Of a stretch of DNA of 64,000 nucleotides, positions 10,016 to 35,829 are shown piece after piece (within the stretch, counting starts at the first letter, position 1; every line of letters begins with the position of its first letter). The DNA is taken from the NCBI GenBank assembly GCA_021163145.1, contig JAGGXH010000064.1, positions 2,197-66,196 of the forward strand, written 5' to 3'. Below the pieces are notes generated by a model. That model saw nothing but the letters and a program-made list of their open reading frames with translations. It was not told the origin of the DNA and did no database searches. The DNA comes from Candidatus Aenigmatarchaeota archaeon. GTDB taxonomy: Archaea; Aenigmatarchaeota; Aenigmatarchaeia; Aenigmatarchaeales; Aenigmatarchaeaceae. The translations under genes were made by a program, and so were the position numbers.

Positions 10016-10133
10016 GGGCGGGTAGCTTAGCTTGGTTAGAGCGCTAGTCTTATAAATTAGCATTTAGCTAATTTTTTTGGCTATGCTCAATAAAAACTAG
10101 AGGTCGGGAGTTCAAATCTCCCCTCGCCCACCA
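10016..10133 (+). tRNA. tRNA-Ile (anticodon UAU) with ~40-nt canonical-position (37/38) intron
   Basis: Acceptor GGGCGGG/CUCGCCC+ACCA, D-arm GCUU/GAGC, anticodon stem CUAGU/ACUAG, loop CUUAUA|A (anticodon TAT at 10051..10053), intron ~10055..10094 forming hairpin attagc/gctaat, variable AGGUC, T-arm GGGAG-UUCAAAU-CUCCC. Confidence 0.75.
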
Positions 10134-10136
10134 TTT

Positions 10137-10162
10137 GGGCCGGTGGTCTAGTCTGGTATGAC
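10137..10162 (+). repeat. tRNA-Val 5' fragment (acceptor + D-arm, 26 nt), imperfect direct repeat of 11061..11086
   Basis: gggccggtggtctagtctggtatgac vs gggccggtggtctagcccggcatgac; no anticodon arm follows; contains the ATG of the downstream endonuclease ORF. Confidence 0.6.
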
Positions 10163-11075: not shown

Positions 11076-11170
11076 CCCGGCATGACGTCACCCTTACATC
11101 CTTTCTTATGATTTATTAAGAAAGGTATGATAGGTGGATATCGCCAGTTCGAATCTGGCCCGGCCCACCA
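11061..11170 (+). tRNA. tRNA-Val (anticodon UAC) with ~33-nt anticodon-loop intron
   Basis: Acceptor GGGCCGG/CCGGCCC+ACCA, anticodon stem UCACC/GGUGG, loop CUUACA (TAC at 11095..11097), intron ~11099..11132 with hairpin cctttctta/taagaaagg, T-arm GCCAG-UUCGAAU-CUGGC. Confidence 0.75.
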
Positions 11171-14695: not shown

Positions 14696-14724
14696 TGTAA
14701 ATTAACATATATTAAGTGATATAA

Positions 14725-15513
14725 ATGCCTGATTTCATTCCTGTATTAACAGCTGCATTGATAATATTATTAGTATTGTTTATAGCAGTTGGTGGGTTAC
14801 CTGTATCAGAAGAAAAGGAAACTTCTCCTAGTAGTTTAACTTATTATTATCCTGATATATCTGGAACAATAATGCTTGGATCAAATTTTACTATATCTAA
14901 TTATGCAGATACAAAATTTTTAGCAAAATTAGATGGAAGAGTTTCTCAAGGTTTAATCTCAGGTGAAAAGAAAACCATATCATTTAAAGCACAAGATTAT
15001 CATAATTTTGATACAGGAAAAATAGTTGTAAATATAATAAACACAAATCTTTATGGAAATTTAATTGTAAAAATAAATGGAAAAACTGTTCTAAATGAAA
15101 GACCTAATATTGGTAAGCATGAATATTATTTTGATAATAATGTATTAAAAACAGAAAATACAATTACTGTATTTACAAGTGGTTCTGGATGGAGATTCTG
15201 GGCACCATCAATTTATGATTTAAATCTAAGTTTATATATGGAGACATTGGATATTAATAAAAAGTCATTTAAATTTGATCTAGATGGTAAGCCTGAAAGA
15301 GCAAGAATTGCTATTTTTGGAGACAGAATTAAAGGTGAAGGAGAAATAGTAATTAAGATTAATGATATAAAGGTGTACAAAGGTTATTTAAATGCTTATA
15401 AATATTTTGATCCAGATATTTTAAATATAGGTGAAAATTATGTTGATATATATTCTGAACAAAATTCAGAATATAATATATATTCAGCTAAAATAATATT
15501 GTGGGATGAATAA
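14725..15513 (+). CDS. membrane-anchored secreted protein (N-terminal TM helix)
   Basis: MPDFIPVLTAALIILLVLFIAVGG then a hydrophilic domain with NxS/T sequons. Confidence 0.4.
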   Translation: MPDFIPVLTAALIILLVLFIAVGGLPVSEEKETSPSSLTYYYPDISGTIMLGSNFTISNYADTKFLAKLDGRVSQGLISGEKKTISFKAQDYHNFDTGKIVVNIINTNLYGNLIVKINGKTVLNERPNIGKHEYYFDNNVLKTENTITVFTSGSGWRFWAPSIYDLNLSLYMETLDINKKSFKFDLDGKPERARIAIFGDRIKGEGEIVIKINDIKVYKGYLNAYKYFDPDILNIGENYVDIYSEQNSEYNIYSAKIILWDE

Positions 15514-15515
15514 TA

Positions 15516-17864
15516 ATGGCAGATGAAAGCAATGAAAAGAAAAAAGAAGGTTATTTAGAAAACGATGAGTTAGAGGAACCAAAAGAGAAAGTACCATCAA
15601 GATTAGCTGCTATTGGTAAACAAATCTGTCCAAAATGCGGAGCAATAAATCCTAGAAATAAACTTGTTTGTATAAAATGTGGTGCATTTCTTCCAAAAGC
15701 TTATAAAAAAGCTTCAGAAGCAAGATATGAATCTGCAGAAAAATGGAAATCTAGGTTTGGTGGTTTTGGAGAAAAAATAAAAGAATATATGCATATCATA
15801 ATCATACCAATCATACTTGGTATAATAGCTATATTATTTGGCTTTATATTTTTTGGTTCAGCATTATTTTTAATAGGATTTTATTTTGCTGCACCATATT
15901 CAAGTTATGCAAGAGGGCCATTAAAATTATTTATTTTATCTTTAATATATTTAGAATTTACAATTTTACATCCTCAAATATTAATAACTTTAATTGTTTT
16001 ATTTATAGGATATTTTTCAATGCCAACTGGTTATAGAGAATCAAGAAAATATAAAGCAGCAGAAGCATGGGGAAGAATATTTATAGGATATCTTGTGGCT
16101 ATTACCTTATATTCAGCATTGGGTGGAGCAACATCATTATATGTAATTCCATTATTAACATTATCACCAATTCAGGCGCCTTTATTTTTAATTTCATTTG
16201 CATTTTTCTTTGTATTGCCTGAAGTGAAGCCTGAAGGAGGAAGCATCAATATATATATGGGTCTTAAAGGAATTCCCCAAACTGTTGCTGGAAAAAGCAT
16301 TGGTGCAATAATATTTGTAACAATAATGTCAATAGCATTGTTATTTATATTAAATTCGTGGAAATTAGCAGAAACATCAACATTTACAATATCTATTTTC
16401 TGGATATTATCATTGATAATGGGTTTATTATCTGGTAGAGAAGGAAGACCATATACAGGAATAATAATGTTGGGAATTGCATTGCTCATGTTTTCAGTAC
16501 AATTTACAGGTGTTGTTGGAACAAATATATTTGGTCCATATTGGCCAACTGTTGAGCACTATACATCAGCAATAATAGAACCTATTAATAATGCAATTGA
16601 AAATGCTGCAAGTGGTGCAGAAGATGCATGGCTAATGATAACTTGTCCTCAATGTTATCAAGCTAAACAACAAAAAATGCAACAAATTGGAACAGGAAGA
16701 GTAAAACCAAGAGGAACTGTAAGATCAATAGAATTATCTAATTTTAATGCAATAAACTATGGAAGTGCAACACCAATAATAGATCCAGCACTTCCTTTAA
16801 TTGGAACAATAGAATTATCAAATAAAGGAGAATTTACAGGAAGAAACATTAAAGTTAAATTAGGTAAAGATGGTTCTGGTTATGTTTTATTAAAGGATCC
16901 TCAAAAAACAGGTGCAGCATATGATACATCTGTTTATTGCGATCCTAATAAAGGAAAAGAGTGTACATACACAGAACTTGAACATGATTTATGTACATTT
17001 ACATCATGTTTAGATTCAAATGAATATTATGACAATGTATTTGAAAAAAATAATCTAGTAACATCTTGTACATGGGATGAATCATTACCAGGAGATTTAA
17101 AAATGATGACATTTAAATGTGGTGATCCAAGCAAAGATTATTCTAAATGGACAGATCTTTCAATATTTGATCCAAATGCACCACCTGGATATGAAATATA
17201 TTTATATGGTCAAATGTTTGCAACAATTTTAATGGAGTATGAATTTGATTATGATGTAAATACATCTCTTGGAATAACTATAATGGATACACAATTGTTT
17301 ATAGATAAATTATCAAGAAAAGAAATAATACCAAAAGAAGAAACATCTGTATATACAGGTGGTCCAGTTCAATTAAATATATGGACACCAAAACAACCAT
17401 TAAGAGACATGGAAGAATCATATATAAGAATATCTGGAATTAATAAAGAAGATGGTGTTGTAGAAAAAGGAAGTGAACTTATTATAAAAATACCTGCAGA
17501 AAATATACCATTTGAATCTAGACCATTAATAGTAAGTAATACAGGTTTAGAAACTACAGAAAATAAATTGATTTATATCTGTAATGATAATACAGAAGTA
17601 GAAGTAAGTTCTATTCAAGAAGAAGAAAGTGCGTGTAGTAATAATGGTGGTGTAAAAGAATCATATTATGAAATAACAGGAACATTATCAAATGACTTAA
17701 ATAAAAATGACTTATTTACAATATTATTATCATTTAAATATTATTTGCCAGATCAAGTAGATGAAAAATCATTTATTCCTGTAGCAACATTTACTTATAC
17801 ATATAAAACAGATAAAAAAATTGAATTGCAAATAGCGAATGCACCAATAACAGGTGCTGGCTAA
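15516..17864 (+). CDS. large membrane protein: N-terminal cytoplasmic zinc ribbon, multi-TM core, Cys-rich extracellular C-domain
   Basis: CPKCGAINPRNKLVCIKCGA; several long hydrophobic segments; C-terminal ~450 aa with paired Cys and NxT sequons. Confidence 0.45.
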   Translation: MADESNEKKKEGYLENDELEEPKEKVPSRLAAIGKQICPKCGAINPRNKLVCIKCGAFLPKAYKKASEARYESAEKWKSRFGGFGEKIKEYMHIIIIPIILGIIAILFGFIFFGSALFLIGFYFAAPYSSYARGPLKLFILSLIYLEFTILHPQILITLIVLFIGYFSMPTGYRESRKYKAAEAWGRIFIGYLVAITLYSALGGATSLYVIPLLTLSPIQAPLFLISFAFFFVLPEVKPEGGSINIYMGLKGIPQTVAGKSIGAIIFVTIMSIALLFILNSWKLAETSTFTISIFWILSLIMGLLSGREGRPYTGIIMLGIALLMFSVQFTGVVGTNIFGPYWPTVEHYTSAIIEPINNAIENAASGAEDAWLMITCPQCYQAKQQKMQQIGTGRVKPRGTVRSIELSNFNAINYGSATPIIDPALPLIGTIELSNKGEFTGRNIKVKLGKDGSGYVLLKDPQKTGAAYDTSVYCDPNKGKECTYTELEHDLCTFTSCLDSNEYYDNVFEKNNLVTSCTWDESLPGDLKMMTFKCGDPSKDYSKWTDLSIFDPNAPPGYEIYLYGQMFATILMEYEFDYDVNTSLGITIMDTQLFIDKLSRKEIIPKEETSVYTGGPVQLNIWTPKQPLRDMEESYIRISGINKEDGVVEKGSELIIKIPAENIPFESRPLIVSNTGLETTENKLIYICNDNTEVEVSSIQEEESACSNNGGVKESYYEITGTLSNDLNKNDLFTILLSFKYYLPDQVDEKSFIPVATFTYTYKTDKKIELQIANAPITGAG

Positions 17865-17905
17865 CATTTATAATTAAATTATACTAAATAATAGTAGGTG
17901 ATGAT

Positions 17906-19741
17906 GTGAATATTAAATATTTGATTCCAATTTTTGCAATAGTTTCAATTGTTTTTGTTTCAGGTTGTATTGAAGGTTTTGATCTTTCTAGAATGGGTTT
18001 TGAAACATCAGGACCATTATCAGAACAATCTGCAGATATATTAGTAACAAAAAATATTCAGACAATCCCATCATCACCTATTTTAGCTGGAAATGAATTT
18101 TCAACAATATTTGAGCTTAAAAATAATGATAATATCAAAACAATTGAAAATGCACAAATAAAATTATTTGATTGGGGTGCATGTACACCATTAATAGATG
18201 AATTTGTTCCAAGTGGATGGGAAAAACCAGGTTCATATTATATTTACACATATGATAGTTTAGCACCAACTCAAGAAGAAAGAATTGAAATGGTATTTAA
18301 AGCACCTGACAATCAAAGAATAGGATATTTAGATGCTGATTGTAATATAAAATGGGAAACATCATATAATTTTAAAGCAATATCACAAGATGATTTTACA
18401 ATAATTTCAAAAACAAGATTAAAAGAATTGCAAAGAGCAGGTCAATCTTGGCAAGGAACAGATCAACCACAATATGTTGGTATAGGTCCAATTAAACTTT
18501 ATTTTGATTTTAAAACACCAATGCCTGTACAAAGTAAGGGCTCTATTCAATTTTCTGTAAAAGCAGTTGATAAAGGTTCTGGAACATTTGCAACTATACC
18601 AAAAGGTTTATTGCAAATAAGAGTTCCTGAAGACTGGTTAGAATATGATGAAAACGGGAACTTATTAAGTGGCTGTACAAGATTTGAACAAGCTTCTGGT
18701 GCTACTGGTGATGTTTTATTGCAAAAAACAGGAAGCTTTGTAATAATGCCAATGGCAGAATTGCAAACAGAAGAAGCTGGTGGAAAATATTGTGTATATT
18801 ATCCAATTGACACAAATCCTAATGCAGAAACAATTTTACAAAATGGTGAAACAAAGACATATTTATTAGAGACAAGTGATTTATCTAATATAAATAGTAT
18901 TACTCTTTCAGTAAAGAAACTTAGTCATAAAATCCGTAAATCTATTATTATTAAAATATTAGAAGATGGTAGAGAAATACATTACCAATCTTATATCTTG
19001 CCATTAGAAGGAGATGCAAATATTGAGTTAAATAAAAATATAGTATTAGTAAAAGGAAGAAAATATGAGCTATCAATTGAAAATCCTTATACACAATCTA
19101 AGACAGATGTTTATTTCTACAATGGAAAACAATATACACCATATTATAAATTATGTGGATCTGCAAGAGCAAAATATTTTGCTCAATCAGAGGCAAAAAC
19201 ATGGATAATTTCAGGAACAGAATATACTATAAATATGGTAGAGATATCATCTCCTAATGAAATAACATTTTATATAGATCCAAGTATAAATAATAAAAAT
19301 ATTATTACACTAAATCTTGGAGATGAAATTTCTATTGATGAAAGCAATAAATTAATATTTAGTGAATATGATAAGGCAACTGGCAAAGTTAAATTAGAAT
19401 TATTTGAAACAGGCACAGAAGTATCAGTAGTAGAATGCCAAACAAATGAAGATTGTGAAGAAGGATTTGAATGTAAAGATGGTCAATGTGTTGAAATATC
19501 AGCAACAACGCCAAGTGAAGTACCAGTTACAATAGAACAAGGATATGTAACATTTGTAAATTCTGTTCCAATAAATCTAATACAAGGTAAAACACCAGAA
19601 ATATTATGTAAATTTAAGGCACCTGATTTAGATGAGGAACAAATACCAGAAAAAACATATACTGTATTTGCAGAAATACCTGAGTATACATATAAAATAA
19701 CAAATTCAAAAACAGTTAGAATAAAACCAACAGTTGAATAA
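17906..19741 (+). CDS. secreted lipoprotein-like surface protein
   Basis: Signal peptide ending in lipobox-like VSGC (IPIFAIVSIVFVSGCIEG); Cys-knot-like CQTNEDCEEGFECKDGQC. Confidence 0.45.
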   Translation: MNIKYLIPIFAIVSIVFVSGCIEGFDLSRMGFETSGPLSEQSADILVTKNIQTIPSSPILAGNEFSTIFELKNNDNIKTIENAQIKLFDWGACTPLIDEFVPSGWEKPGSYYIYTYDSLAPTQEERIEMVFKAPDNQRIGYLDADCNIKWETSYNFKAISQDDFTIISKTRLKELQRAGQSWQGTDQPQYVGIGPIKLYFDFKTPMPVQSKGSIQFSVKAVDKGSGTFATIPKGLLQIRVPEDWLEYDENGNLLSGCTRFEQASGATGDVLLQKTGSFVIMPMAELQTEEAGGKYCVYYPIDTNPNAETILQNGETKTYLLETSDLSNINSITLSVKKLSHKIRKSIIIKILEDGREIHYQSYILPLEGDANIELNKNIVLVKGRKYELSIENPYTQSKTDVYFYNGKQYTPYYKLCGSARAKYFAQSEAKTWIISGTEYTINMVEISSPNEITFYIDPSINNKNIITLNLGDEISIDESNKLIFSEYDKATGKVKLELFETGTEVSVVECQTNEDCEEGFECKDGQCVEISATTPSEVPVTIEQGYVTFVNSVPINLIQGKTPEILCKFKAPDLDEEQIPEKTYTVFAEIPEYTYKITNSKTVRIKPTVE

Positions 19742-20597
19742 AATGAAAAAAATATTTTTTCCTTTATTATTGTCAATTGTAGTTATTTCAGGATGTATTA
19801 GTATTCCTGGTATTGGAAAGGCAAGTATAGGTGAGCAAGGAATATTTAATATCCAAAATCCTGATATTAGCATAGATATAAAACCATCTACAACTGAAGT
19901 TAAATCAGGAAGACAAATAAGTTTAAAATTTCATTTAACAAGTAATCAAAATGATTTGTTTAATATTTTACTTAATGTATATGATCAATGTATATTTACT
20001 GGTGATAATTTATATTCAATAGATAGTTTAAAGCATGGTAGATCAAAATCATGGATATGGAGATGGAAAGCTGGAAGCACAGAATTTCCTATGAATTGTA
20101 AAATAAAATATAGAGTATCATATATATCTAATTTCACATTATTTCATGATATAATATCAATGAAAGAATCTGAATATTATTCAAGACAAGAAAGAGGAAC
20201 TTTAAATGAAATAAAACTATTATCAAATAGTACAACCAATCCTTTAGACATTAAAATAAGATTCTCAGAACAACAACCATTTATTGAAGGAGAAGAATAT
20301 AATATGTATATTGATTATTCTTATTCAGGTAATGGATATATTGAGAAATTAGAAAATGTTACTATAAAAATTCCAGATTTCATAAATGATATAAAATGCA
20401 GTGGTTATGATTATGATAAAGAAACCCATACACTTAAATTAAATAGAGATCTTAATTTTTATAATAAAAAAGGTCCACAAACAACATGCACATTTACAAC
20501 ACAATTATCAGATCCATTGGAAATACAAAAAATTACATTAACAGCAAACTATATATATAAGTTTGACAATTCATTATTAATAAATGTAAAACCTTAA
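19734..20597 (+). CDS. secreted lipoprotein-like protein
   Basis: Signal peptide with ISGC motif (FFPLLLSIVVISGCISIPG). Confidence 0.45.
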   Translation: MNKMKKIFFPLLLSIVVISGCISIPGIGKASIGEQGIFNIQNPDISIDIKPSTTEVKSGRQISLKFHLTSNQNDLFNILLNVYDQCIFTGDNLYSIDSLKHGRSKSWIWRWKAGSTEFPMNCKIKYRVSYISNFTLFHDIISMKESEYYSRQERGTLNEIKLLSNSTTNPLDIKIRFSEQQPFIEGEEYNMYIDYSYSGNGYIEKLENVTIKIPDFINDIKCSGYDYDKETHTLKLNRDLNFYNKKGPQTTCTFTTQLSDPLEIQKITLTANYIYKFDNSLLINVKP

Positions 20598-20609
20598 ATG
20601 TGATTAAAA

Positions 20610-21521
20610 ATGAAAAAAATTATAATATTGATGTTATTGGTTTCAATTATATTTGTTTCAGGTTGTATTGGAGGAGGTAATAAACAAATACAACCACAAA
20701 AAGAAACAGGCCAAGGTTTAGAAATAGTTGATTTTTCATCATCTGTTTCAGATGTATATAGTGGAAAGCTAGTATCTATTCAAATGATGGTTGAAAACAA
20801 AGGTGATTATAAGATAAATAAAGATTATGGTTTAGTATATCTAATAACTGGATCTGATTGGGCATTAACTCAAGATGCAAATAAATCATATACTAAAGAC
20901 TTAAAACCAGCTGATCCTGTTTCAGGTGCACCACCAGGAAGTGCTATATTTAGATGGTCAGCAAAAGCACCTATTTTACCAGCAAGTCAAAAAAGAACAG
21001 ATACATTTATAGCAAGAGCATATTATGATTATCAAACAAAATCATTAGGAAATGTTTGGTTATATCCTGAAGTTGAAGCAACTGCAGCAAGAGATAAAAA
21101 AGAGACATTACCTTCTTCAGAATTTTCTTGTACAAAAGCACCAATAAGTTTAGATGTGAGTGTAGTACCTGATCCTGTTATAGTTGCAGAATCAGGAGAA
21201 TTGTTTTCACTTGTAATAGATATAAAAAACAATGGAAATGGAGTAGTATATAAAAATGGAACAATAACACCATATAATCATGAATTAACAGAGAATGATC
21301 TAAATAAAATTTCATTGCAAATAGAATTACCAAATGATATTATAATAACAGATCCTTCATGTTATCAAGATGTTGAATTAATTGGTGGAGAAGCTAATAT
21401 AATATGTGATTTAGAAGTTATTGACATGCCTACAACAAAGAAAACAATACCAATAACAGTCAAAGCTGATTATGGATATTATACAGATAAAACTCTTAAT
21501 ATAAAAATTCTTGGAAAATGA
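20610..21521 (+). CDS. secreted lipoprotein-like protein
   Basis: Signal peptide with VSGC motif (LMLLVSIIFVSGCIGGG). Confidence 0.45.
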   Translation: MKKIIILMLLVSIIFVSGCIGGGNKQIQPQKETGQGLEIVDFSSSVSDVYSGKLVSIQMMVENKGDYKINKDYGLVYLITGSDWALTQDANKSYTKDLKPADPVSGAPPGSAIFRWSAKAPILPASQKRTDTFIARAYYDYQTKSLGNVWLYPEVEATAARDKKETLPSSEFSCTKAPISLDVSVVPDPVIVAESGELFSLVIDIKNNGNGVVYKNGTITPYNHELTENDLNKISLQIELPNDIIITDPSCYQDVELIGGEANIICDLEVIDMPTTKKTIPITVKADYGYYTDKTLNIKILGK

Positions 21522-21522
21522 T

Positions 21523-22767
21523 TTACTTTATAAAAGCTGATAATCCTTTTTGCCTGTATTTATATATTTCCATATTTATTTTCTTTCCTGGTGGAACAGG
21601 TATCCCATAAACTCCTGCACCACCTGGAATATATTTAAATTTATCTTCTCTAAATAGCTTAATTAATTCAGCAGTTTTTTTATGAACTTTTTCAAGTTCA
21701 TTAATAGAAATATTTAATAGAACATTAGTTTCATTTTCAAATTTATTAACAAATTCTTTCCATAAATCTTGAACCCTATTTGACCAAACCTGTTTAATAT
21801 TTAAGGCAATAGCAATAATTTCTGATAATGGTATTATATGTATATATTTTGGTCTATGCTTAGGATGAATACCTTCTTTTGTGTCAGAAAGTTCCTTAAT
21901 TCTATAATCAACACCTTTTTTAATATAATTTTTACATTTTGGACATCTCCAGTTAAGTTTTTCGGCTTCTCTTGGACTAAAAAACATTAAGCAACCTCTG
22001 CATCTTGTTCGGTTATATTTGCCTTCAAGTGGATTAAGTCCAACATTTAATATACATTTTCTATTAGCTTCTCTTTTTAATGCCTTAGATATCTCATTAA
22101 AGCTAATTTCTTTTATCTTAAGTTTATTAAATTCTCTTCCCATCTTATTTGGCCAAGGACTATGAGCATCACTATTGCTAAGAAATGTTAATTTATGTAA
22201 TTCGCTAATCCTATCAGCCATATTTGTATCTGCTGATAATCCTAATTCTAGAAAATGAATTTTATTCCAGTATTTTCCATAACAATCTTTATATGAATCA
22301 AACTTAGAATATAATGAAAAATATGGAGTAAAAGCATGCGCGAATCCTATTAAACAATCTGACTCTATACACATTTCAGCTATTTGTTCAGCACTTAACC
22401 ATAATTTAGGTCTGCCATCTGTATCTAGATTTTTACAATGTTTTTTTATTTTTTCTCTTAGTTCATATACTTTTGATAAACTAGGAAATAATATAATATG
22501 ATGAACTCTGTTATTGTCTTCAACTTCAGTCTGTAAAATAAATTTTGTTCCATTTGGATGTTCAAAAATATCTTCAGTAACTGGTTTTAATTGCTGTTTT
22601 ATTAATTTGATCCATCTTTCATTTAATATATCAGCTGTTCCAACCAGTTGTAAACCTTTTAATAGAGCTTGTTCTCCGATTACTTTTGGGATCATCTTTT
22701 GACTAACTGCACCAGAATAAAGCCCATGTACATGGAGGTCGCAATTAACTTCTATAAAATCAGACAT
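21523..22767 (-). CDS. PHP-domain nuclease with C-terminal zinc ribbons, EndoQ-like
   Basis: N-terminal CDLHVHGLYSGAVS (PHP metal-binding His cluster); C-terminal CRGC...CPKC; size ~414 aa fits archaeal endonuclease Q; assignment from memory of family features. Confidence 0.4.
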   Translation of the reverse strand: MSDFIEVNCDLHVHGLYSGAVSQKMIPKVIGEQALLKGLQLVGTADILNERWIKLIKQQLKPVTEDIFEHPNGTKFILQTEVEDNNRVHHIILFPSLSKVYELREKIKKHCKNLDTDGRPKLWLSAEQIAEMCIESDCLIGFAHAFTPYFSLYSKFDSYKDCYGKYWNKIHFLELGLSADTNMADRISELHKLTFLSNSDAHSPWPNKMGREFNKLKIKEISFNEISKALKREANRKCILNVGLNPLEGKYNRTRCRGCLMFFSPREAEKLNWRCPKCKNYIKKGVDYRIKELSDTKEGIHPKHRPKYIHIIPLSEIIAIALNIKQVWSNRVQDLWKEFVNKFENETNVLLNISINELEKVHKKTAELIKLFREDKFKYIPGGAGVYGIPVPPGKKINMEIYKYRQKGLSAFIK

Positions 22768-24194
22768 TTTTTATACACCTTATACCAATTTTTATCTAAT
22801 AAATCAAATTTTCTTAGAGTTCTACAGAAATTTAGAAATTCCTTTCTAATCATAGGATAATAGTTATTCTGAAATTTTAAAATTATATTTCTTATTTCTC
22901 TACCTTCTTTTGTAAATATAATTTTATATTTTTTATTTGGTTTTGGACTTATTTGCTTTAATTTTATTAGCTCATATTTCTTGAAAACATTTATATATTT
23001 TTTTTGACCTCTTGCAATGTCAATACCCTTAATAATGTAACCGTCTTTGATTTTCATAAAAGCTTTTGTATACTGTAAATTTAAGAACAAATATATAAAT
23101 TTTAATCTATTAATCAGATTGAATTTATAAATATCATTGATTATAAGATTTATATTTTTGAACCAATCTGAATAAATTATCAATTTAGCTGTAGTAGGAT
23201 AATTACAGCATTTGATTTTTATATTTTCATTTTTAAATATTTTTTCTAATAATAAGAAATCTGAATTTAGCGTTTTTTTATTTAAGCTAATATGATGAGT
23301 TAAAAATGTTTTTGTCTGCTTTATAGGACTTCCGTCACCTGACAAAACACCTCTAATAAAATTATTATTGTCATATGGAATATTCACATCTAATAATTTT
23401 AAAAATAGTTCTTTTAGAATAATGCTACCAATATTCATTTCAAGTGTACCGCATGGTGATCTCGATTTTCTGCTTAAATGAAGCTTTGTGAATTTTTCTA
23501 TACCGGTTTGAGTTTTCCAAAATGCCTTTAATTGTTTTTCTTTTTTCTTTAGTTTGGGGTGACAATATATAGAAGCACTAATATCTTTTCTTCTTAGGTT
23601 TGATATGCTTTCTATAAAATCTAAAATAATATTAATTGTACTAGGGTCAGAATTTGTAAATGATGGTGCTTTCTTCCCACCTTCAGCGAAATATAAACCT
23701 AATGCAGCAGATGCCAATTCAGTAATTCTTATTTTTTTGTTAAAAATAATATCTTTTTTATAATATCCTCCAACTAATACTTTTAAATTGTTTAGTTGAT
23801 ATGCATAAATTGGAGTTAATCCTGTAGATTTCGGCATAATAGAAAGAATAGATATCTCGGAAGATTCTTTCTTATTTTCTCTAATTAAAGCCTCCTTTTC
23901 TGGAATTATATCTATAATCTTAATCTTCGGATTTTTAATCAACTTTTCCTTTTTGTATGAAATAATATAACTGTTTTCTGTTCTATGCATTTTTTTGAAT
24001 CTTATTGATTTATTATCTTTATTTGAAACTTCAACAACAGTTATTAAATTATTACAAGGTTTAGAAATAAAATTTTTAATGATACTCATTGGAATTGATG
24101 TAGTAAAATTAGATCTTATATGCGGTTTATATGTATTATTATTTATAATGCTATACTTGCTTCGATCCAAATTTAACTCACTAATATTTACCAC
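22752..24194 (-). CDS. LAGLIDADG homing endonuclease-like protein (free-standing)
   Basis: Motifs LGLYFAEGGK and FIRGVLSGDGSP; 3' end overlaps the start of the EndoQ-like gene by 16 nt. Confidence 0.55.
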   Translation of the reverse strand: MVNISELNLDRSKYSIINNNTYKPHIRSNFTTSIPMSIIKNFISKPCNNLITVVEVSNKDNKSIRFKKMHRTENSYIISYKKEKLIKNPKIKIIDIIPEKEALIRENKKESSEISILSIMPKSTGLTPIYAYQLNNLKVLVGGYYKKDIIFNKKIRITELASAALGLYFAEGGKKAPSFTNSDPSTINIILDFIESISNLRRKDISASIYCHPKLKKKEKQLKAFWKTQTGIEKFTKLHLSRKSRSPCGTLEMNIGSIILKELFLKLLDVNIPYDNNNFIRGVLSGDGSPIKQTKTFLTHHISLNKKTLNSDFLLLEKIFKNENIKIKCCNYPTTAKLIIYSDWFKNINLIINDIYKFNLINRLKFIYLFLNLQYTKAFMKIKDGYIIKGIDIARGQKKYINVFKKYELIKLKQISPKPNKKYKIIFTKEGREIRNIILKFQNNYYPMIRKEFLNFCRTLRKFDLLDKNWYKVYKKCLIL

Positions 24195-24553: not shown

Positions 24554-24663
24554 TGGTGGGCGAGGAGAGATTTGAACTCTCGACCTCTACGTTATCAGCT
24601 ACGCCTCTATTGTATTGGAAAATACAAAGATGTAGCGCTCTAACCAAGCTAAGCTACCCGCCC
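24554..24663 (-). tRNA. tRNA-Ile (anticodon GAU) with 32-nt intron at a non-canonical position (anticodon-stem 30/31)
   Basis: 5' 31 nt identical to tRNA-Ile(UAU) at 10016; joining ...gagcgctac + gctgataacgtagaggtc gives stem CUACG/CGUAG, loop CUGAUAA (GAT at plus 24594..24596), variable AGGUC, T-arm GAGAG-UUCAAAU-CUCUC, acceptor CUCGCCC+ACCA; intron 24600..24631. Confidence 0.65.
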
Positions 24664-27601: not shown

Positions 27602-28801
27602 GTGAACTATATGTCAAATGATACAAATTATAAGCTAAAGAAACTATTAAAAGAACTTGAAAGTAAGAGAGGAAGGCACACAGAATTGATTAGTCTTTAT
27701 ATTCCTAAGGGATATTCTTTAAATGAAATAATGACACTGCTGTCAAATGAAATTTCATTAACACAGAACGTAAAATCTAAAACAGTTAGAAAAAATGTTA
27801 CAGATGCATTAACAAAAATAATGCAACATCTTAAGACATATAAAAAGACTCCTGAAAATGGTTTAGCTATTTTCTGTGGAAATGTTTCTGAGCAAGAAGG
27901 TAAAACAGATATTGAACTCTGGGCTGTTGAGCCACCAGAACCACTTGGTATAAAATTATATTGGTGTGATCAAAAATTTGAATTACAACCATTAAGAGAC
28001 ATGGTTAAAGAAAAAGATGTATATGGATTAGTTGTATTAGATGCAAATGAAGCAACAATTGGAATTTTAAAAGGAAAGCAAATACAAGTTAAGAAACATC
28101 TTAAATCAATTGTTCCTGGAAAGTTTATTAAAGGTGGGCAATCACAAATGAGATTTCAAAGAGTTAGAGAAGGTTTATTAAATGATTGGTTAAAAACTGT
28201 TGCAGAAAATGTTAAAAAATTCTTATCAGACACAAAAGGCATTATTATAGGTGGAGGAGGACCTGTTAAAGATAATTTTTATAATAAGCATTATCTTCCA
28301 ACAGAATTAGAAAAAAAAGTTATTGGTATAAAAGATGTTGGATATACAGATGAGCATGGCTTACAAGAACTTTTAAATAGATCAGAGGATTTATTACAAG
28401 AAGCAGCAGTTTCTAAAGAAAAAAAGATATTGAAGAAATTCTTTGATAATTTAAACACAGATAGCGGAATGGTGGTATATGGATTAGATGCTGTTATAGA
28501 TGCATTGCAAAAAGGTGCAGTGGAAACAATTCTTATATCAGAAGATCTAGATTATTTTGAAGGAGAATTTATTTGCGAATGTGGAAATTCTTTTAAAAAA
28601 ATTGTAAAAAATGAAAATATCAAATGTCCAAAATGTGGAAGTAACATGAAATTGATTGGAAAAGAAGATATAATAGATGCTATAGAAGAAATTGTTAAAA
28701 ATTATGGAACAGAAGTTATTATTATTTCTAGAACAACATCAGAGGGAGAACAATTTTATAACATTGGTGGAATAGGAGCTATCTTAAGATATAAAATATA
28801 A
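27602..28801 (+). CDS. prf1: peptide chain release factor aRF1
   Basis: GGQ motif (FIKGGQSQMRFQR), NIKS-like TQNVKSKT, C-terminal GGIGAILRYKI; contains a CxxC...CxxC insertion in domain 3. Confidence 0.85.
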   Translation: MNYMSNDTNYKLKKLLKELESKRGRHTELISLYIPKGYSLNEIMTLLSNEISLTQNVKSKTVRKNVTDALTKIMQHLKTYKKTPENGLAIFCGNVSEQEGKTDIELWAVEPPEPLGIKLYWCDQKFELQPLRDMVKEKDVYGLVVLDANEATIGILKGKQIQVKKHLKSIVPGKFIKGGQSQMRFQRVREGLLNDWLKTVAENVKKFLSDTKGIIIGGGGPVKDNFYNKHYLPTELEKKVIGIKDVGYTDEHGLQELLNRSEDLLQEAAVSKEKKILKKFFDNLNTDSGMVVYGLDAVIDALQKGAVETILISEDLDYFEGEFICECGNSFKKIVKNENIKCPKCGSNMKLIGKEDIIDAIEEIVKNYGTEVIIISRTTSEGEQFYNIGGIGAILRYKI

Positions 28802-33550: not shown

Positions 33551-34828
33551 ATGAATACAAAGGGAAAATATATGCAACAAAAATCTGTAAAATTTGCTAA
33601 TGATTTTCTAAATAATTATAGTCATTATAAATTAGATTTTATTAATGATTTTTATGGCATAGAGCCTATTGATAAGGATTTAGAAGATTTCAAAAACTTT
33701 TTCAAAGTTATGCAGTTGAAGGCAAAAGCATTGTCGCTTAAAATTATATCTAAAAAAACTGGCCTATCCAAGTCTTCTATTGGAAAGTGGGTATTTAACA
33801 TAAGTATACCACCAATAATCCAACTTCTCAATTATCACAATAAACTAACAAAAAAATGTAATAAGAAATGGTTATCTATTAACTCTACAAGAGGCGGAAA
33901 ATTAATTGGACAATGGATAGCTGTTCCTGAAACAATTGATAATTATCAAACTATAGTGAATTTTCTAGAACAGATAAAACCATTACAAATTGCATATGAA
34001 AGAGCTAAAAAATTTAAGATAAACTTAGAAAAACAAAGAACATTACTATTTGCTTATTTACTAGGCATAATGTTGGGTGATGCGAGTAAACATGGTATTA
34101 AGAGAAGAAACAGAACTTCAAGGCGTGTACAATTGGCATTAACAGGAGCACATAAATCAAATGAGAGAATTGGTAACTTTACATCTCTATGTGCAAATTC
34201 AATAGGATTAAGAATGAATAGAATTAAAGATATGCCAGCTGGTAAAATGAACATTAAACCATTTTATAGATGGAGTTCACAGTCTTCTTTGTTAGTTCAA
34301 TGGATATTTGATGTTTGTATGGGGCTTAACAATGATCAGACAACAACATATGATAATGTTAAAATGGGCTGGCTACTAAAGATGCCTAAACAATTTAAAA
34401 TATGGTTTTTACAAGGTTTAGCAGACTCTGATGGTTATGTAGATTTCAATTCTTTTCAAGTTGGAATAATCTCTCAACCTAATACTGATTTAATTAAGAA
34501 GATTATTGAAAGTTTTGGAGTCAAATGTTCCATAAAAATTTTCAGAGAAAACAATTTAGAAGCAGTTATTGTTTCTGTTGAAGATGCATATAAATTGCAA
34601 TTATTTAACCCAATTGTAAAGAGTTACAGATATTTTGAAATGCAACGTCTTGCTACAGCAAAAAAATTATCTTGGCATATGTCAGAGGATTTAAATCTTA
34701 AAATCGTAGAATTATTGCAATCAGGATTAGATGGAACTAAATTAATTCGGAAACTCATACAAGCAGAAAATATAAGAGTAAGACCAAATGTTATAAGAAG
34801 AATAAAGAGGGTGAACAAAATTGAATAA
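33551..34828 (+). CDS. LAGLIDADG homing endonuclease-like protein with N-terminal HTH (free-standing)
   Basis: HTH-like LKIISKKTGLSKSSIGKWV; LAGLIDADG motifs LLGIMLGDASKHG and FLQGLADSDGYV; ends 17 nt before the Kae1 N-terminal remnant. Confidence 0.6.
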   Translation: MNTKGKYMQQKSVKFANDFLNNYSHYKLDFINDFYGIEPIDKDLEDFKNFFKVMQLKAKALSLKIISKKTGLSKSSIGKWVFNISIPPIIQLLNYHNKLTKKCNKKWLSINSTRGGKLIGQWIAVPETIDNYQTIVNFLEQIKPLQIAYERAKKFKINLEKQRTLLFAYLLGIMLGDASKHGIKRRNRTSRRVQLALTGAHKSNERIGNFTSLCANSIGLRMNRIKDMPAGKMNIKPFYRWSSQSSLLVQWIFDVCMGLNNDQTTTYDNVKMGWLLKMPKQFKIWFLQGLADSDGYVDFNSFQVGIISQPNTDLIKKIIESFGVKCSIKIFRENNLEAVIVSVEDAYKLQLFNPIVKSYRYFEMQRLATAKKLSWHMSEDLNLKIVELLQSGLDGTKLIRKLIQAENIRVRPNVIRRIKRVNKIE

Positions 34829-35829
34829 AAATAATATAAATAAAATTTGTCTTGGTATCGAGAGTACCGCACAATATATTTAGCGGAAATACTCTTGGTA
34901 TAGGAATAGTAAGAGGTGATAAAGTTCTAGCTAATATTAATAATATGTATAGACCTGAAGAAGGTGGGATACACCCAAGACAAGCAATGGATCATCATAT
35001 TAATGTAGCTAAAAAATTATTACAAGATGTTCTAGAAGAAGCAAAAATATCTATAAATGATATAGATTTAATTGCATTTTCAAAAGGTCCTGGATTACCA
35101 CAATGTCTAAGAGTAGGTTCAGTAATTGCAAGAACTTTATCATTAAAATTAAATAAGCCACTAATACCAGTTAATCATTGTATTGCACATATTGAAATTG
35201 GAAAACTCTTAACAGGATCAAGTGATCCAGTTACATTATATGTATCTGGTGGAAATACACAAATTATTGCTTATACAGAAAAGAGATATAGAGTATTTGG
35301 AGAAACACAAGATTTGCCAATTGGAAATGCTTTAGATATGTTTGCAAGACATGCTGGTTTTCCACACCCAGGAGCACCTGAAATAGAAAAATTAGCATTA
35401 AAGGGAAAATATATTAAAATGCCTTATGTTGTAAAAGGAATGGATGTTTCTTTTTCAGGAATAATAACACATGCAATAAAATTAATGAAAGACCATAAAT
35501 TAGAAAATATTTGTTATTCATTGCAAGAAACTTGTTTTGCAATGCTAACTGAAGTTACTGAAAGAGCAATGGCACATACTAATAAAAATGAAGTATTATT
35601 AACAGGTGGTGTTGCAGCTAATAAAAGATTAACTAGTATGCTAGATACTATGTGTAAGCAAAGAAATGCCAAATTATATGTTTGCCCAATGAAATATTCT
35701 GGTGATAATGGTGCTATGATTGCATGGACAGGTTTGCTACAATATAAAAATGGATATAAAACTACTTTGGATAATACTAAAATAGATAGATATTGGAGAA
35801 CAGAAGATGTTGAAATAAATTGGTTATAG
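34821..35829 (+). CDS. kae1: Kae1/TsaD tRNA t6A synthase, N-terminus disrupted by an apparent frameshift (listed ORF 34852..35829 lacks the GxEGTA motif, which lies upstream in another frame)
   Basis: Main ORF: HPRQAMDHH, DLIAFSKGPGL, PVNHCIAHIEIGK; upstream frame (34845..34883) encodes ICLGIESTAQYI* = Kae1 N-terminal motif, while the main frame resumes with NTLGIGIV; 16 nt (34872..34887) separate the two in-frame pieces. Confidence 0.8.

What the first reader, a model, noticed from the sequence alone, without database searches (positions are those of the whole stretch)
34821..34900. Kae1 (universal t6A synthase) has its GxEGTA N-terminal motif split off by a 16-nt out-of-frame segment, right after a homing-endonuclease gene
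The frame containing ICLGIESTA (34845..34871), the Kae1 phosphate-binding N-terminus, runs into QYI-stop. The main Kae1 ORF starts only at a TTG at 34852 and resumes homology at NTLGIGIV (34888). The two pieces would be contiguous (LGIESTA-NTLGIGIV, compare P. abyssi GIEGTAHTLGIGIV) if 16 nt (caatatatttagcgga) were absent. That implies a genuine frameshifted pseudogene of an otherwise essential gene, a sequencing or assembly indel, or a recoding event. Pcc1 elsewhere in the window appears intact. The LAGLIDADG gene 33551..34828 ends 17 nt upstream, suggesting endonuclease activity or insertion damaged the Kae1 5' end.
Basis: seen in the sequence. Interest (0 to 1): 0.7.

Follow-up and report, generated by a model that had tools for sequence, protein, structure and literature searches.

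The report
Tiny tRNA-type intron inside archaeal kae1
The 16 bases that seem to break this archaeon's essential Kae1 gene are most likely a miniature intron cut out of the mRNA by the tRNA-splicing enzyme, which in the literature searched here has been reported inside the coding sequence of only one other archaeal gene (cbf5).

Summary
In detail: kae1 is interrupted after ...ICLGIESTA by a short out-of-frame segment. It is not a pseudogene, an assembly error or a frameshift site. The flanking bases fold into an archaeal bulge-helix-bulge (BHB) splicing motif: a 12-bp exon-exon helix, a 3-nt bulge, a 4-bp helix CCGC/GCGG, then the 5' site in a loop. Cutting after the second nucleotide of each bulge, the rule used for archaeal tRNA and cbf5 introns, removes 34873..34888 (16 nt). 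This gives GIESTA-H-TLGIGIV, collinear with solved Kae1 structures. The same codon is interrupted in 62 distinct kae1 sequences from metagenomes and MAGs by 47 different inserts of 12-30 nt, of all three length classes. The rule restores the reading frame and the ...GIE-STAHTFG... junction in every one, followed by a full-length Kae1 ORF wherever the contig allows. The central helix covaries between exon and intron. Synonymous sites in both exons are recoded to keep the outer helix, and 84 uninterrupted kae1 genes lack that helix. All three tRNA genes in the window also carry introns. Splicing itself was not observed. The upstream LAGLIDADG gene did not damage kae1, but it is non-randomly linked. 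Intact copies or relics lie directly upstream of many interrupted kae1 genes, which suggests an endonuclease-intron homing partnership.

The parts
34821..34872 (+). kae1 exon 1 (inferred start TTG 34821; encodes MNKNNINKICLGIESTA plus the first base of the His codon)
   Evidence: In-frame TTG lies 6 nt after a Shine-Dalgarno-like GAGGGTGA (34807..34814) and overlaps the stop of the upstream ORF. There is no in-frame ATG. Relatives start 3-8 codons before (I/L)CLGIE. The start codon is an inference.
34873..34888 (+). 16-nt BHB mini-intron (aatatatttagcggaa); contains the in-frame stop TAG 34881..34883
   Evidence: Boundaries come from cleavage after the second nucleotide of each 3-nt bulge (rule quoted in PMC2738675). 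Removal gives a product collinear with M. jannaschii Kae1 (E 3.7e-123, no gap at the junction). The same rule restores the frame and the ...GIE-STAHTFG... junction in 62 of 62 distinct homologous loci.
34889..35829 (+). kae1 exon 2 (last two bases of the His codon, then TLGIGIV... to stop)
   Evidence: Intact ORF; TIGR03722 arch_KAE1 at 497.9 bits against a 375 cutoff for the joined protein; metal-binding NHCIAHIE and GDNGAM motifs present.
34855..34866 (+). 5' strand of the outer (exon-exon) helix, GUAUCGAGAGUA
   Evidence: Pairs with 34890..34901 in the MFE and centroid folds. Across relatives a mean of 14.1 of 15 positions pair, against 8.5 of 15 in 84 uninterrupted kae1 genes. Two covarying pairs.
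34867..34870 (+). 5' strand of the central 4-bp helix, CCGC (in exon 1: Thr ACC and Ala GCa codons)
   Evidence: Pairs with GCGG 34883..34886. The second pair covaries across relatives: U-A 42, C-G 11, A-U 2, U-G 2, one mismatch.
34871..34873 (+). 5' splice-site trinucleotide ACA (cut between 34872 and 34873); in this window it opens into the 12-nt apical loop rather than being closed by an inner helix
   Evidence: This is the relaxed form of the motif. 12 of 62 relatives have an inner helix of 3 bp or more that closes the bulge.
34883..34886 (+). 3' strand of the central helix, GCGG (inside the intron)
34887..34889 (+). 3' bulge AAA (cut between 34888 and 34889)
   Evidence: Unpaired 3-nt bulge in the MFE fold of the window and of 59 of 62 relatives. 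It is AAA or AGA in 59 of 62.
34890..34901 (+). 3' strand of the outer helix, UACUCUUGGUAU (exon 2)
33551..34828 (+). free-standing double-motif LAGLIDADG homing-endonuclease-like gene (425 aa) with N- and C-terminal helical extensions; physically and evolutionarily linked to the kae1 5' end
   Evidence: Pfam Hom_end 21.8 bits, cutoff 21.1. Both motif acidic residues are invariant in 48 homologs. AlphaFold model pLDDT 94.7, best PDB match I-DmoI with target TM 0.72. Homologs or relics lie directly upstream of interrupted kae1 in many loci.

Best explanation
The 16-nt segment (34873..34888) is an archaeal bulge-helix-bulge (BHB) intron inside the coding sequence of kae1. In the primary transcript, exon 1 and exon 2 pair over 12 bp. 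Stacked on this is a 4-bp helix formed between exon 1 (CCGC) and the intron (GCGG), flanked by a 3-nt bulge (AAA) on the 3' strand and by the 5' site (ACA) at the edge of the intron loop. The tRNA-splicing endonuclease (EndA) cuts after the second nucleotide at each site. An RtcB-type ligase then joins the exons, rebuilding the His codon (C|AT) and producing a normal Kae1 with an intact GxE(S/G)TA phosphate-binding N-terminus. Unspliced mRNA terminates at a stop codon inside the intron. Shown here: the structure, its conservation and covariation, the exact restoration of frame and sequence in all homologous cases, selection on synonymous sites, and the use of BHB introns by this genome's tRNAs. 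Inferred: that EndA and a ligase actually act on this mRNA, and the TTG start codon. Secondary, less certain layer: the I-DmoI-like LAGLIDADG gene immediately upstream is a homing endonuclease that is genetically coupled to the intron-bearing kae1 5' end.
For: (1) Fold: 12-bp helix, AAA bulge, 4-bp helix; -21.7 kcal/mol, z -4.68. (2) The cleavage rule documented for cbf5 and tRNA BHB introns removes exactly 16 nt and yields a product collinear with solved Kae1 that passes the archaeal Kae1 equivalog cutoff. (3) Recurrence: three other miscalled Kae1 proteins in the protein search and 67 of 72 metagenome hits to a junction pattern give 62 distinct sequences with 47 distinct inserts of 12-30 nt. 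The rule gives ...GIE-STAHTFG... in 62 of 62, followed by a 305-339 aa ORF in nearly every contig long enough to hold the gene. (4) Covariation at positions the search pattern left free: the central pair is U-A 42, C-G 11, A-U 2, U-G 2 with 1 mismatch, and the outer pairs are C-G/U-A (43/12) and A-U/G-C. 95% of cells are paired against 34-45% when slid, and 0 of 500 shuffles reach the score. RNAalifold independently predicts the same structure. (5) Synonymous-site selection: ATC 78% at the helix site against 12% elsewhere in the same genes, ACT 89% against 37%, GGT 95% against 28%, GGA+GGG 0% against 53%. (6) Control: 84 uninterrupted kae1 genes, including four close relatives encoding the identical peptide, pair at a mean of 8.5 of 15 positions and none has a run of 7 or more, against 14.1 of 15 and 55 of 62 for interrupted genes. 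(7) All three tRNA genes in the window have introns, one at a non-canonical site in the anticodon stem. DPANN EndAs are reported to carry an extra loop associated with more disrupted tRNA genes (PMC5829648). (8) Insert sizes lie within the known 11-175 nt range of archaeal tRNA introns.
Against: No transcript evidence: no spliced (cDNA-like) version of this Kae1 was found in the protein collection, and no RNA data could be examined. In the window and in most relatives the 5' site is not a closed 3-nt bulge (the inner helix is 2 bp or shorter in 50 of 62), so cleavage needs an endonuclease that accepts relaxed motifs. Neither EndA nor RtcB is encoded in the scanned ORFs of the window, so the enzyme type of this organism is unknown. 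Part of the recurrence set was collected with a pattern that fixed AGTAC, GC..GC.G and ATAC, so those columns are not independent evidence. The start codon (TTG) is inferred.
Confidence: 0.88

Rival explanations
1. Programmed +1 ribosomal frameshift: the ribosome reads ICLGIESTAQYI, stalls at AUU-UAG-C (34878..34884) and slips +1, as at the CUU-UGA-C site of bacterial prfB. This would give Kae1 with a 5-residue insertion (QYISG) in the phosphate-binding hairpin.
For: In the window the exon-1 frame ends at AUU UAG C, which resembles known +1 shift sites. A +1 shift there does enter the main ORF. The prfB comparison is from my own knowledge.
Against: It is not general. Homologous inserts are 0, 1 or 2 modulo 3 (9/35/18), and all nine 3n-length inserts have in-frame stops. 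No shift-site sequence is conserved. What is conserved is RNA pairing, including exon-intron covariation that a frameshift signal would not need. The product would also carry variable insertions in the most conserved motif of the family, which no relative shows.
Confidence: 0.03
2. Genuine pseudogene or damaged gene: kae1 was inactivated by a 16-bp insertion, perhaps caused by the neighbouring endonuclease, and the organism relies on another copy or on a host.
For: DPANN archaea have reduced genomes and are often host-dependent (my own knowledge). The rest of the genome could not be checked for a second kae1.
Against: Exon 2 is intact over 316 codons with the catalytic motifs present. The interruption is conserved at the same codon in 62 distinct lineages with intact ORFs. 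Synonymous sites are under selection to keep the helix. Exon 1 remains in frame with a start codon and the conserved peptide in all of them.
Confidence: 0.03
3. Conserved regulatory hairpin without splicing: exon 1 is a short upstream ORF, and Kae1 is translated from an internal start (such as TTG 34852) without the N-terminal motif.
For: Gene callers do find an ORF from TTG 34852. The hairpin could occlude or expose a start site.
Against: The GxE(S/G)TA hairpin belongs to the nucleotide-binding core of the fold (ASKHA family, my own knowledge) and is present in essentially all relatives. In other lineages the post-intron frame has no plausible start, or starts inside GIGIV (P0062). Exon 1 keeps the exact Kae1 N-terminal peptide in 62 of 62 cases, which would not be maintained in an unrelated uORF.
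Confidence: 0.03
4. Sequencing or assembly indel.
For: None beyond the a priori possibility in metagenome assemblies.
Against: The identical sequence is in three further contigs from two JGI samples, and a 90%-identity cluster mate in an NCBI MAG was likewise called at 325 aa. Dozens of other lineages carry structured inserts at the same site.
Confidence: 0.01
5. Translational bypassing (hopping) over the 16 nt, as in phage T4 gene 60.
For: A stop codon and a hairpin are present near the gap, as in gene 60 (my own knowledge).
Against: By eye, no matched take-off and landing codons give the conserved product: landing of peptidyl-tRNA-Ala on GCG 34884..34886 would read AEILLV, not AHTLGI (sequence). 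The conserved geometry is that of a BHB motif, not of a bypass element.
Confidence: 0.01

Closest known systems
cbf5 pre-mRNA intron of Crenarchaeota (Watanabe et al. 2002; Yokobori et al. 2009, PMC2738675)
   Same: A short BHB-type intron inside the coding sequence of an RNA-modification enzyme gene. It splits a codon of a catalytically important, highly conserved motif, and the predicted cleavage lies between the second and third bulge residues. The motif is often relaxed, the phylogenetic distribution is patchy and suggests gain and loss, and genome annotation routinely miscalls it or confuses it with frameshifting.
   Different: A different gene (kae1, t6A synthase, rather than the pseudouridine synthase cbf5). 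A different part of the archaeal tree (AT-rich DPANN-type genomes; homologs annotated as Nano-, Woese- and Aenigmatarchaeota). The outer helix is an unusually long 12-15 bp exon-exon helix kept by recoded synonymous sites. It is frequently linked to a free-standing LAGLIDADG gene. cbf5 splicing has cDNA support, whereas this case has none yet.
Archaeal tRNA and rRNA BHB introns cut by EndA and joined by RtcB
   Same: The same structural signal (3-nt bulges separated by a 4-bp helix), the same cleavage register, and a size within the 11-175 nt range of tRNA introns. The window's own three tRNA genes have such introns.
   Different: The substrate is an mRNA. The exon-exon helix is made of coding sequence on both strands. 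In most members the 5' site lies in a loop (relaxed motif).
BHB intron in the 5' UTR of Haloferax volcanii HVO_1309 mRNA (Schwarz et al. 2020, PMC7714728)
   Same: An mRNA that is a substrate of the tRNA-splicing endonuclease.
   Different: That intron lies in the untranslated leader and does not interrupt the reading frame.
Collaborative homing: free-standing endonuclease F-CphI plus the psbA group I intron in cyanophage S-PM2 (Zeng, Bonocora & Shub 2009, as described in PMC6083498)
   Same: A free-standing homing-endonuclease gene sits directly next to an intron-containing conserved gene. In the phage the intron interrupts the enzyme's target and so prevents self-cleavage, while the enzyme gives the ORF-less intron mobility. 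Here an I-DmoI-like gene ends 25-73 nt before the intron-bearing codon in at least 11 lineages, with relics in others.
   Different: The intron here is a protein-spliced BHB mini-intron rather than a self-splicing group I intron, the enzyme is LAGLIDADG rather than Endo VII-like, and the hosts are archaea. Target specificity and immunity are untested. One lineage (L172) has the enzyme gene next to an uninterrupted kae1.
I-DmoI, the LAGLIDADG endonuclease encoded inside the 23S rRNA intron of Desulfurococcus mobilis
   Same: Best structural match of the upstream protein's core (target TM 0.72, probability 1.0). Both are monomeric double-motif enzymes of archaea associated with BHB-type introns.
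   Different: I-DmoI is encoded within its intron. This protein is encoded outside, upstream of the host gene, and has about 155 extra N-terminal residues (HTH-like) and about 70 extra C-terminal residues. Sequence identity is only 15-18%.

Membership tests
Archaeal BHB intron (EndA/RtcB-spliced) | 4-bp central helix flanked by a 3-nt bulge on the 3' strand and stacked on an outer helix | tested here: met
   Window: CCGC/GCGG, AAA bulge, 12-bp outer helix. MFE keeps all 4 central pairs in 59 of 62 relatives and the 3' bulge unpaired in 59 of 62. RNAalifold gives the same consensus.
Archaeal BHB intron (EndA/RtcB-spliced) | Second 3-nt bulge on the opposite strand, closed by an inner helix (strict hBHBh' form) | tested here: not met
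   In the window the 5' site opens into a 12-nt loop. Only 12 of 62 relatives have an inner helix of 3 bp or more. The element therefore fits the relaxed form, which the literature says only broad-specificity EndAs cut (PMC5829648).
Archaeal BHB intron (EndA/RtcB-spliced) | Cleavage after the second nucleotide at each site yields a functional, in-register product | tested here: met
   62 of 62 distinct sequences give ...GIE-STAHTFG... The window product aligns without a gap to PDB Kae1.
Archaeal BHB intron (EndA/RtcB-spliced) | Base pairing maintained by compensatory change | tested here: met
   Three pairs have double changes, and 0 of 500 shuffles reach the covariation score. Synonymous-site bias favours the pairing base. 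The helix is absent from 84 uninterrupted genes.
Archaeal BHB intron (EndA/RtcB-spliced) | Host uses the pathway (other BHB introns; EndA and ligase genes) | tested here: inconclusive
   3 of 3 tRNA genes in the window have introns, one at a non-canonical position. No EndA or RtcB gene lies among the 40 newly Pfam-scanned window ORFs (of 58 ORFs of 90 aa or more; most others were identified via homologous loci, a few were not examined), and the rest of the genome is unavailable.
Archaeal BHB intron (EndA/RtcB-spliced) | Intron actually excised from RNA | not testable with these tools
   No transcript data. No spliced-form protein in the collection.
Kae1 (KEOPS t6A synthase) | Full-length match to the archaeal Kae1 equivalog model and to solved Kae1 structures, including the N-terminal motif | tested here: met
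   TIGR03722 497.9 bits against a 375 cutoff. 9d85_K E 3.7e-123 over residues 9-330. This holds only for the spliced product.
LAGLIDADG homing endonuclease (upstream ORF 33551..34828) | Two LAGLIDADG motifs ending in acidic residues, and the alpha-beta-beta-alpha-beta-beta-alpha double-domain fold | tested here: met
   G176-D177 and D292-S293-D294 are invariant in 48 homologs. AlphaFold pLDDT 94.7. Foldseek top hits are I-DmoI, PI-SceI, I-SceI and others. Pfam is only borderline.
LAGLIDADG homing endonuclease (upstream ORF 33551..34828) | Site-specific DNA cleavage of an allele that lacks the element | not testable with these tools
   Needs biochemistry.
Collaborative homing (free-standing endonuclease plus ORF-less intron) | Endonuclease gene adjacent to the intron-containing gene, more often than expected | tested here: met
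   11 intact copies plus at least 4 relics among 39 interrupted loci with 1.4 kb or more of upstream sequence, against 0 of 84 uninterrupted loci. The pair is kept in a different synteny (L170). Caveats: most uninterrupted controls are distant lineages, and one endonuclease-positive locus is uninterrupted (L172).
Collaborative homing (free-standing endonuclease plus ORF-less intron) | Enzyme cuts the intron-less allele at the intron insertion site, and the intron protects the host allele | not testable with these tools
   Needs in vitro cleavage assays.
Programmed +1 frameshift site (prfB type) | Conserved slippery codon plus stop, with a fixed frame relationship between the two ORFs | tested here: not met
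   Insert lengths modulo 3 are 9/35/18, and there is no conserved shift site.

The most novel reading that the evidence does not exclude
The kae1 mini-intron and the I-DmoI-like LAGLIDADG gene immediately upstream form a mobile partnership ('collaborative homing') in archaea. The free-standing endonuclease would cut uninterrupted kae1 at the conserved GIESTAHTFG-coding site. The BHB intron, together with the recoded flanking codons (TCA to AGT and others), would destroy that site and so protect its own genome. Repair would co-convert the endonuclease gene and the intron, which lie only about 45 nt apart. After fixation the endonuclease gene would decay, as the relics in L084, L096, L107, L161, L108 and L081 suggest, and the intron would remain. 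[quoted passage not shown]
Probability: 0.3. Interest if true: 0.9.

Novelty: new member of a known kind. Interest (0 to 1): 0.8.

Why it matters
(1) In the literature searched here, introns of the tRNA-splicing (BHB) type inside archaeal coding sequences have been reported for only one gene, cbf5, and only in Crenarchaeota. A second case, in a universal and essential gene, in a distant group of archaea and present in at least 62 distinct sequences, would show that protein-spliced mRNA introns are a recurring feature of archaeal gene structure rather than a one-off. Both known hosts, cbf5 and kae1, are RNA-modification enzymes, which hints at a link between tRNA splicing capacity and RNA modification (speculative).

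(2) It has practical consequences. Public annotations of these genomes contain N-terminally truncated or garbled Kae1 proteins (for example MFQ6020894.1 at 305 aa, and 325-aa calls such as P0001 and its cluster mate MCD6477282.1). Kae1 is widely used as a universal marker gene, so such miscalls could affect trees and completeness estimates.

(3) The tight linkage with an I-DmoI-like endonuclease gene gives a directly testable hypothesis for how such introns spread.

Tried and rejected
**Tried, with no useful result**
- ARAGORN on the window found no tRNAs. It misses intron-bearing archaeal tRNAs; Rfam plus manual excision found three.
- The GTDB genome scan with the Kae1 protein returned only distant, uninterrupted kae1 genes. 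These were useful only as controls.
- A loose scan of the whole window for the same architecture (outer helix of 7 bp or more, 4-bp helix, 3-nt bulge) gave 183 hits against about 120 in shuffles. It does not discriminate in 27.6% GC sequence, so I cannot say whether other genes in the window carry such introns.
- Brute-force excision followed by ARAGORN to locate the tRNA introns was too noisy. It was replaced by explicit predictions that were then verified.
- My first version of the outer-helix control had an off-by-one register error. It was corrected.
- Pfam annotation of 40 further window ORFs found no EndA or RtcB.

**Considered and rejected or left open**
- Adjacent same-frame T2SSF ORFs at 899..2722 (-) looked like another interrupted gene but are ordinary neighbours, TAA followed by ATG.
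- The second free-standing LAGLIDADG ORF (10158..11075) is not detectably related in sequence to the one next to kae1.
- Endonuclease and Kae1 pairwise identities correlate (Pearson 0.73, Spearman 0.34). This is too weak to separate vertical co-inheritance from mobility.
- EF-1alpha next to the Nitrososphaerota members of the endonuclease family appears complete, with no intron seen.
- The sigma-70-type promoter scan is not applicable to archaea and was uninformative.
Full report
**1. The observation**

The window is AT-rich (27.6% GC) and archaeal. Around the finding lie rpoE', spt4, S24e and S27ae, then kae1, ProRS, aCPSF1 and a proteasome subunit.

- ICLGIESTA is encoded at 34845..34871 and that frame stops after QYI.
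- The long Kae1 ORF begins only at TTG 34852, in the +1 frame, and resumes homology at NTLGIGIV.
- A 425-aa ORF with LAGLIDADG-like motifs ends at 34828.
- Removing 16 nt fuses the two parts.

**2. What the bases around the gap do**

The flanks are self-complementary. RNAfold pairs 34855..34866 (GUAUCGAGAGUA) with 34890..34901 (UACUCUUGGUAU). It leaves AAA 34887..34889 as a 3-nt bulge, pairs CCGC 34867..34870 with GCGG 34883..34886, and leaves 34871..34882 as a loop. The energy is -21.7 kcal/mol, with z = -4.68 and 0 of 200 shuffles as stable.

This is the anatomy of the archaeal bulge-helix-bulge (BHB) splicing signal. The literature on the only established archaeal mRNA intron, cbf5, states that cleavage falls between the second and third residue of each bulge (PMC2738675). 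Applying that rule cuts after C34872 and after A34888. It removes aatatatttagcggaa (16 nt) and rebuilds a His codon, C|AT.

The product reads ...ICLGIESTAHTLGIGIV... It aligns without a gap across the junction to M. jannaschii Kae1 (9d85_K, E 3.7e-123). It scores 497.9 bits on TIGR03722 (arch_KAE1), whose cutoff is 375.

A likely start is TTG 34821, 6 nt after GAGGGTGA and overlapping the stop of the upstream ORF. This is an inference.

**3. Is it conserved?**

Among the 120 best Kae1 homologs, almost all begin M(I/L)CLGIESTAHTFG(V/I)GIV. Four do not: the window's own cluster and P0072, P0103 and P0062. Their DNA shows inserts at exactly the same codon, with different sequences and lengths:
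- CCGC-ACT-TGAATA-GCGG-AAA (13 nt)
- CTGC-ACA-TTAAACA-GCAG-AAA (14 nt)
- CTGC-TCT-AGTTTAACT-GCAG-AAA (16 nt)

A DNA pattern for the interrupted junction left the helix positions, the bulge and the loop free. It matched all 9 interrupted loci and none of the 80 uninterrupted loci held at that point, and has an expectation of 0.00 in shuffles of the window. In the metagenome collection it found 72 stretches. Of these, 67 are interrupted kae1 genes and 5 are GC-rich false positives.

Together with the window and the earlier loci this gives 62 distinct sequences and 47 distinct inserts of 12, 13, 14, 15, 16, 17, 18, 19, 20, 23, 29 and 30 nt. In all 62 the same cleavage rule yields ...GIE-STAHTFG.... 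An ORF of about 305-339 codons follows in nearly every contig long enough to hold the gene.

Insert lengths modulo 3 are 0, 1 and 2 in 9, 35 and 18 cases. All nine 3n-length inserts contain in-frame stops. In all 62 the unspliced exon-1 frame terminates within or just after the insert.

**4. Is the pairing selected?**

I analysed sequences in fixed register, omitting only the variable inner loop; 58 rows are distinct.
- 95% of cells form standard pairs, against 34-45% when the 3' partners are slid by 1-3 columns.
- 0 of 500 shuffles reach the observed covariation score.
- Three pairs change on both sides. The second pair of the central helix is U-A 42, C-G 11, A-U 2, U-G 2 with one mismatch; it links a synonymous Thr codon position in exon 1 to an intron base. 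An outer pair is C-G 43 and U-A 12; it links the Gly GGC/GGT third position in exon 1 to the first base of Val GTN or Ile ATN in exon 2. Another outer pair is A-U 47, G-U 8 and G-C 3; it links GAA/GAG to TTY (Phe) or CTY (Leu).

RNAalifold on 33 full-length sequences, with no structure imposed, predicts the same outer helix, 3-nt bulge and 4-bp helix with the same three covarying pairs.

Both strands of the outer helix are coding, so I controlled for coding constraint in two ways.

First, I compared codon use at the helix sites with the rest of the same genes:

| Site | Codon | At helix site | Elsewhere in the same genes |
|---|---|---|---|
| Ile | ATC | 78% | 12% |
| Ile | ATA | 2% | 40% |
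| Thr | ACT | 89% | 37% |
| Phe | TTC | 78% | 30% |
| Gly (exon 2) | GGT | 95% | 28% |
| Gly (exon 1) | GGA or GGG | 0% | 53% |

The bias is always towards the pairing base.

Second, I examined the same 15 positions in 84 uninterrupted kae1 genes. They pair at a mean of 8.5 of 15, and none has a run of 7 or more pairs from the junction. Interrupted genes pair at 14.1 of 15, and 55 of 62 have such a run. The four closest uninterrupted relatives encode the identical peptide GIESTAHTFG but use TCA/TCT, GGA and ATA and form no helix.

**5. Does this organism splice BHB introns?**

Rfam finds two over-long tRNA genes, and I found a third by eye. After removal of the predicted introns, ARAGORN gives clean cloverleaves:
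- tRNA-Ile(UAU), 10016..10130, 40-nt intron.
- tRNA-Val(UAC), 11061..11167, 33-nt intron.
- tRNA-Ile(GAU), 24557..24663 on the - strand, 32-nt intron inside the anticodon stem. This is a non-canonical position.

According to PMC5829648, non-canonical introns need broad-specificity endonucleases. The same paper reports that many DPANN EndAs carry an extra loop (L3) associated with more disrupted tRNA genes. This matters because the kae1 motif is the relaxed form in the window and in most relatives. The 3' half (helix, bulge, helix) is canonical, but the 5' site is closed by an inner helix of 3 bp or more in only 12 of 62.

I did not find EndA or RtcB among the window's scanned ORFs.

**6. Distribution**

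On a neighbour-joining tree of 159 Kae1 proteins, intron presence is clustered but patchy, with 17 parsimony changes against about 38 for shuffled labels. This recalls the gain-and-loss history described for cbf5. Only 4 of the 120 closest protein clusters are interrupted.

**7. The LAGLIDADG gene**

In the closest uninterrupted relatives, kae1 follows S27ae after about 25 nt. The window therefore carries about 2 kb of extra DNA there.

The 425-aa ORF is only borderline in Pfam (Hom_end 21.8 bits against a 21.1 cutoff). Other evidence is stronger:
- Its family of 128 archaeal proteins keeps the acidic residues of both LAGLIDADG motifs invariant.
- A confident AlphaFold model (pLDDT 94.7) matches I-DmoI best, with target TM 0.72. 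I-DmoI is the endonuclease of an archaeal rRNA BHB intron.

Homologs at 40-65% identity lie directly upstream of interrupted kae1, on the same strand, ending 25-73 nt before the Ser codon:
- 11 of the 39 distinct interrupted loci that have 1.4 kb or more of upstream sequence carry an intact copy.
- Short relics of the gene's C-terminus, or internally deleted copies, occur in L084, L096, L107, L161, L108 and L081.
- None of the 84 uninterrupted loci has it, although 80 of these are distant lineages.

I also looked up two family members independently of kae1:
- One is again upstream of an interrupted kae1, in a different synteny (L170: CCGC-TCT-AATCTAATT-GCGG-AGA, 16 nt).
- The other is upstream of an uninterrupted kae1 whose sequence at the insertion site is atypical (GIECSAHTFG; L172).

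A distant Nitrososphaerota branch of the family abuts the 3' end of EF-1alpha.

So 'endonuclease damage' is not what happened, but the linkage is real. The arrangement resembles collaborative homing, in which a free-standing endonuclease targets the intron insertion site of the neighbouring gene and the intron prevents self-cleavage (PMC6083498). I rate this reading at about 0.3, because target specificity is untested and the controls are phylogenetically uneven.

**8. Comparison with what is known, and novelty**

Searches of the held literature found no paper combining Kae1 with BHB or archaeal introns. As late as 2020, cbf5 was described as the only mRNA with a BHB intron, apart from a newly found 5'-UTR intron in Haloferax.

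The mechanism proposed here is the known one, EndA plus ligase acting on a BHB motif. I therefore file it as a new member of a known kind, not a new kind. What is new is the host gene, the lineage, the breadth (62 distinct sequences), the long recoded exon-exon helix, and the endonuclease linkage.

**9. Limits**

- Splicing is inferred, not observed.
- The endonuclease type is unknown.
- The TTG start is inferred.
- Some alignment columns were fixed by the search pattern.
- The loose motif scan could not tell whether other genes in the window are similarly interrupted.

Noticed in passing
window 11061..11167 (+): A tRNA-Val(UAC) gene with a 33-nt intron at the canonical 37/38 position. It was missed by ARAGORN and by Rfam at gathering threshold, and gives a clean cloverleaf after excision.
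   Followed up: yes
window 24557..24663 (-): tRNA-Ile(GAU) with a 32-nt intron inside the 5' strand of the anticodon stem, a non-canonical position. By eye its BHB has central helix CGCU/GGCG with bulges ACA and UAG. This implies a splicing endonuclease that accepts non-standard sites.
   Followed up: partly
window 10016..10130 (+): tRNA-Ile with anticodon UAU and a 40-nt intron. From memory, a UAU isoleucine tRNA for AUA decoding is the unusual solution known from Nanoarchaeum and Korarchaeum, in place of a modified CAU tRNA.
   Followed up: no
window 10158..11075 (+): A second free-standing LAGLIDADG_3-like ORF (305 aa, 23.3 bits) lies exactly between the two intron-bearing tRNA genes, and its 3' end overlaps the start of tRNA-Val by 15 nt. 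It is not sequence-related to the one next to kae1. It may be another endonuclease-BHB-intron neighbourhood.
   Followed up: partly
window 2719..5787 (-): A PilB/T2SSE-type ATPase of 1022 aa carries an intein with a LAGLIDADG endonuclease domain (Intein_splicing 68.9 bits, LAGLIDADG_3 76.3 bits). That makes three LAGLIDADG elements in 64 kb.
   Followed up: no
L172:5190-5330 (JGI 3300038380): A homolog of the kae1-adjacent endonuclease sits upstream of an uninterrupted kae1 whose N-terminal motif is GIECSAHTFG instead of GIESTAHTFG, altered exactly at the intron insertion site. This could be an alternative way of escaping cleavage.
   Followed up: partly
L166-L169 (Nitrososphaerota contigs): The distant branch of the same endonuclease family (29-37% identity, HTH_23/HTH_38-like N-terminus, sometimes annotated 'transposase-like') lies convergent with the 3' end of the EF-1alpha gene in two different genomes. 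EF-1alpha looks complete.
   Followed up: partly
all 62 interrupted kae1 loci; window 34881..34883: A stop codon in the exon-1 frame follows the 5' splice site almost immediately in most introns; the read-through peptide is typically ...STAL*. All nine introns whose length is a multiple of three also have in-frame stops. This is more than AT-richness alone would predict by my rough estimate, and may serve to release ribosomes from unspliced mRNA.
   Followed up: partly
window 34765..34789 and L084 about 5885..5910: 25 nt at the 3' end of the endonuclease ORF (GAAAATATAAGAGTAAGACCAAATG, TATA-like) are identical in L084. There the endonuclease is gone and this stretch forms the tail of a YbaK-type tRNA-editing gene, although the two Kae1 proteins are only about 62% identical. 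It may be kae1's own promoter, or a relic of recent conversion.
   Followed up: partly
public protein records: Interrupted kae1 genes are deposited as N-terminally truncated or garbled proteins: NCBI MFQ6020894.1 (305 aa), the 325-aa P0001 cluster including NCBI MCD6477282.1, and the P0072 and P0103 clusters. They are usually named 'bifunctional ... Kae1/Bud32' although they lack a kinase domain.
   Followed up: partly
window 13688..24194: A block of eight consecutive large ORFs (262-782 aa, both strands) has no Pfam match at E <= 1e-4.
   Followed up: no
window 12637..13644 (-) and 27602..28801 (+): Two eRF1-family proteins: a 335-aa Pelota-like one and a 399-aa aRF1. This is the ordinary archaeal complement.
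   Followed up: no
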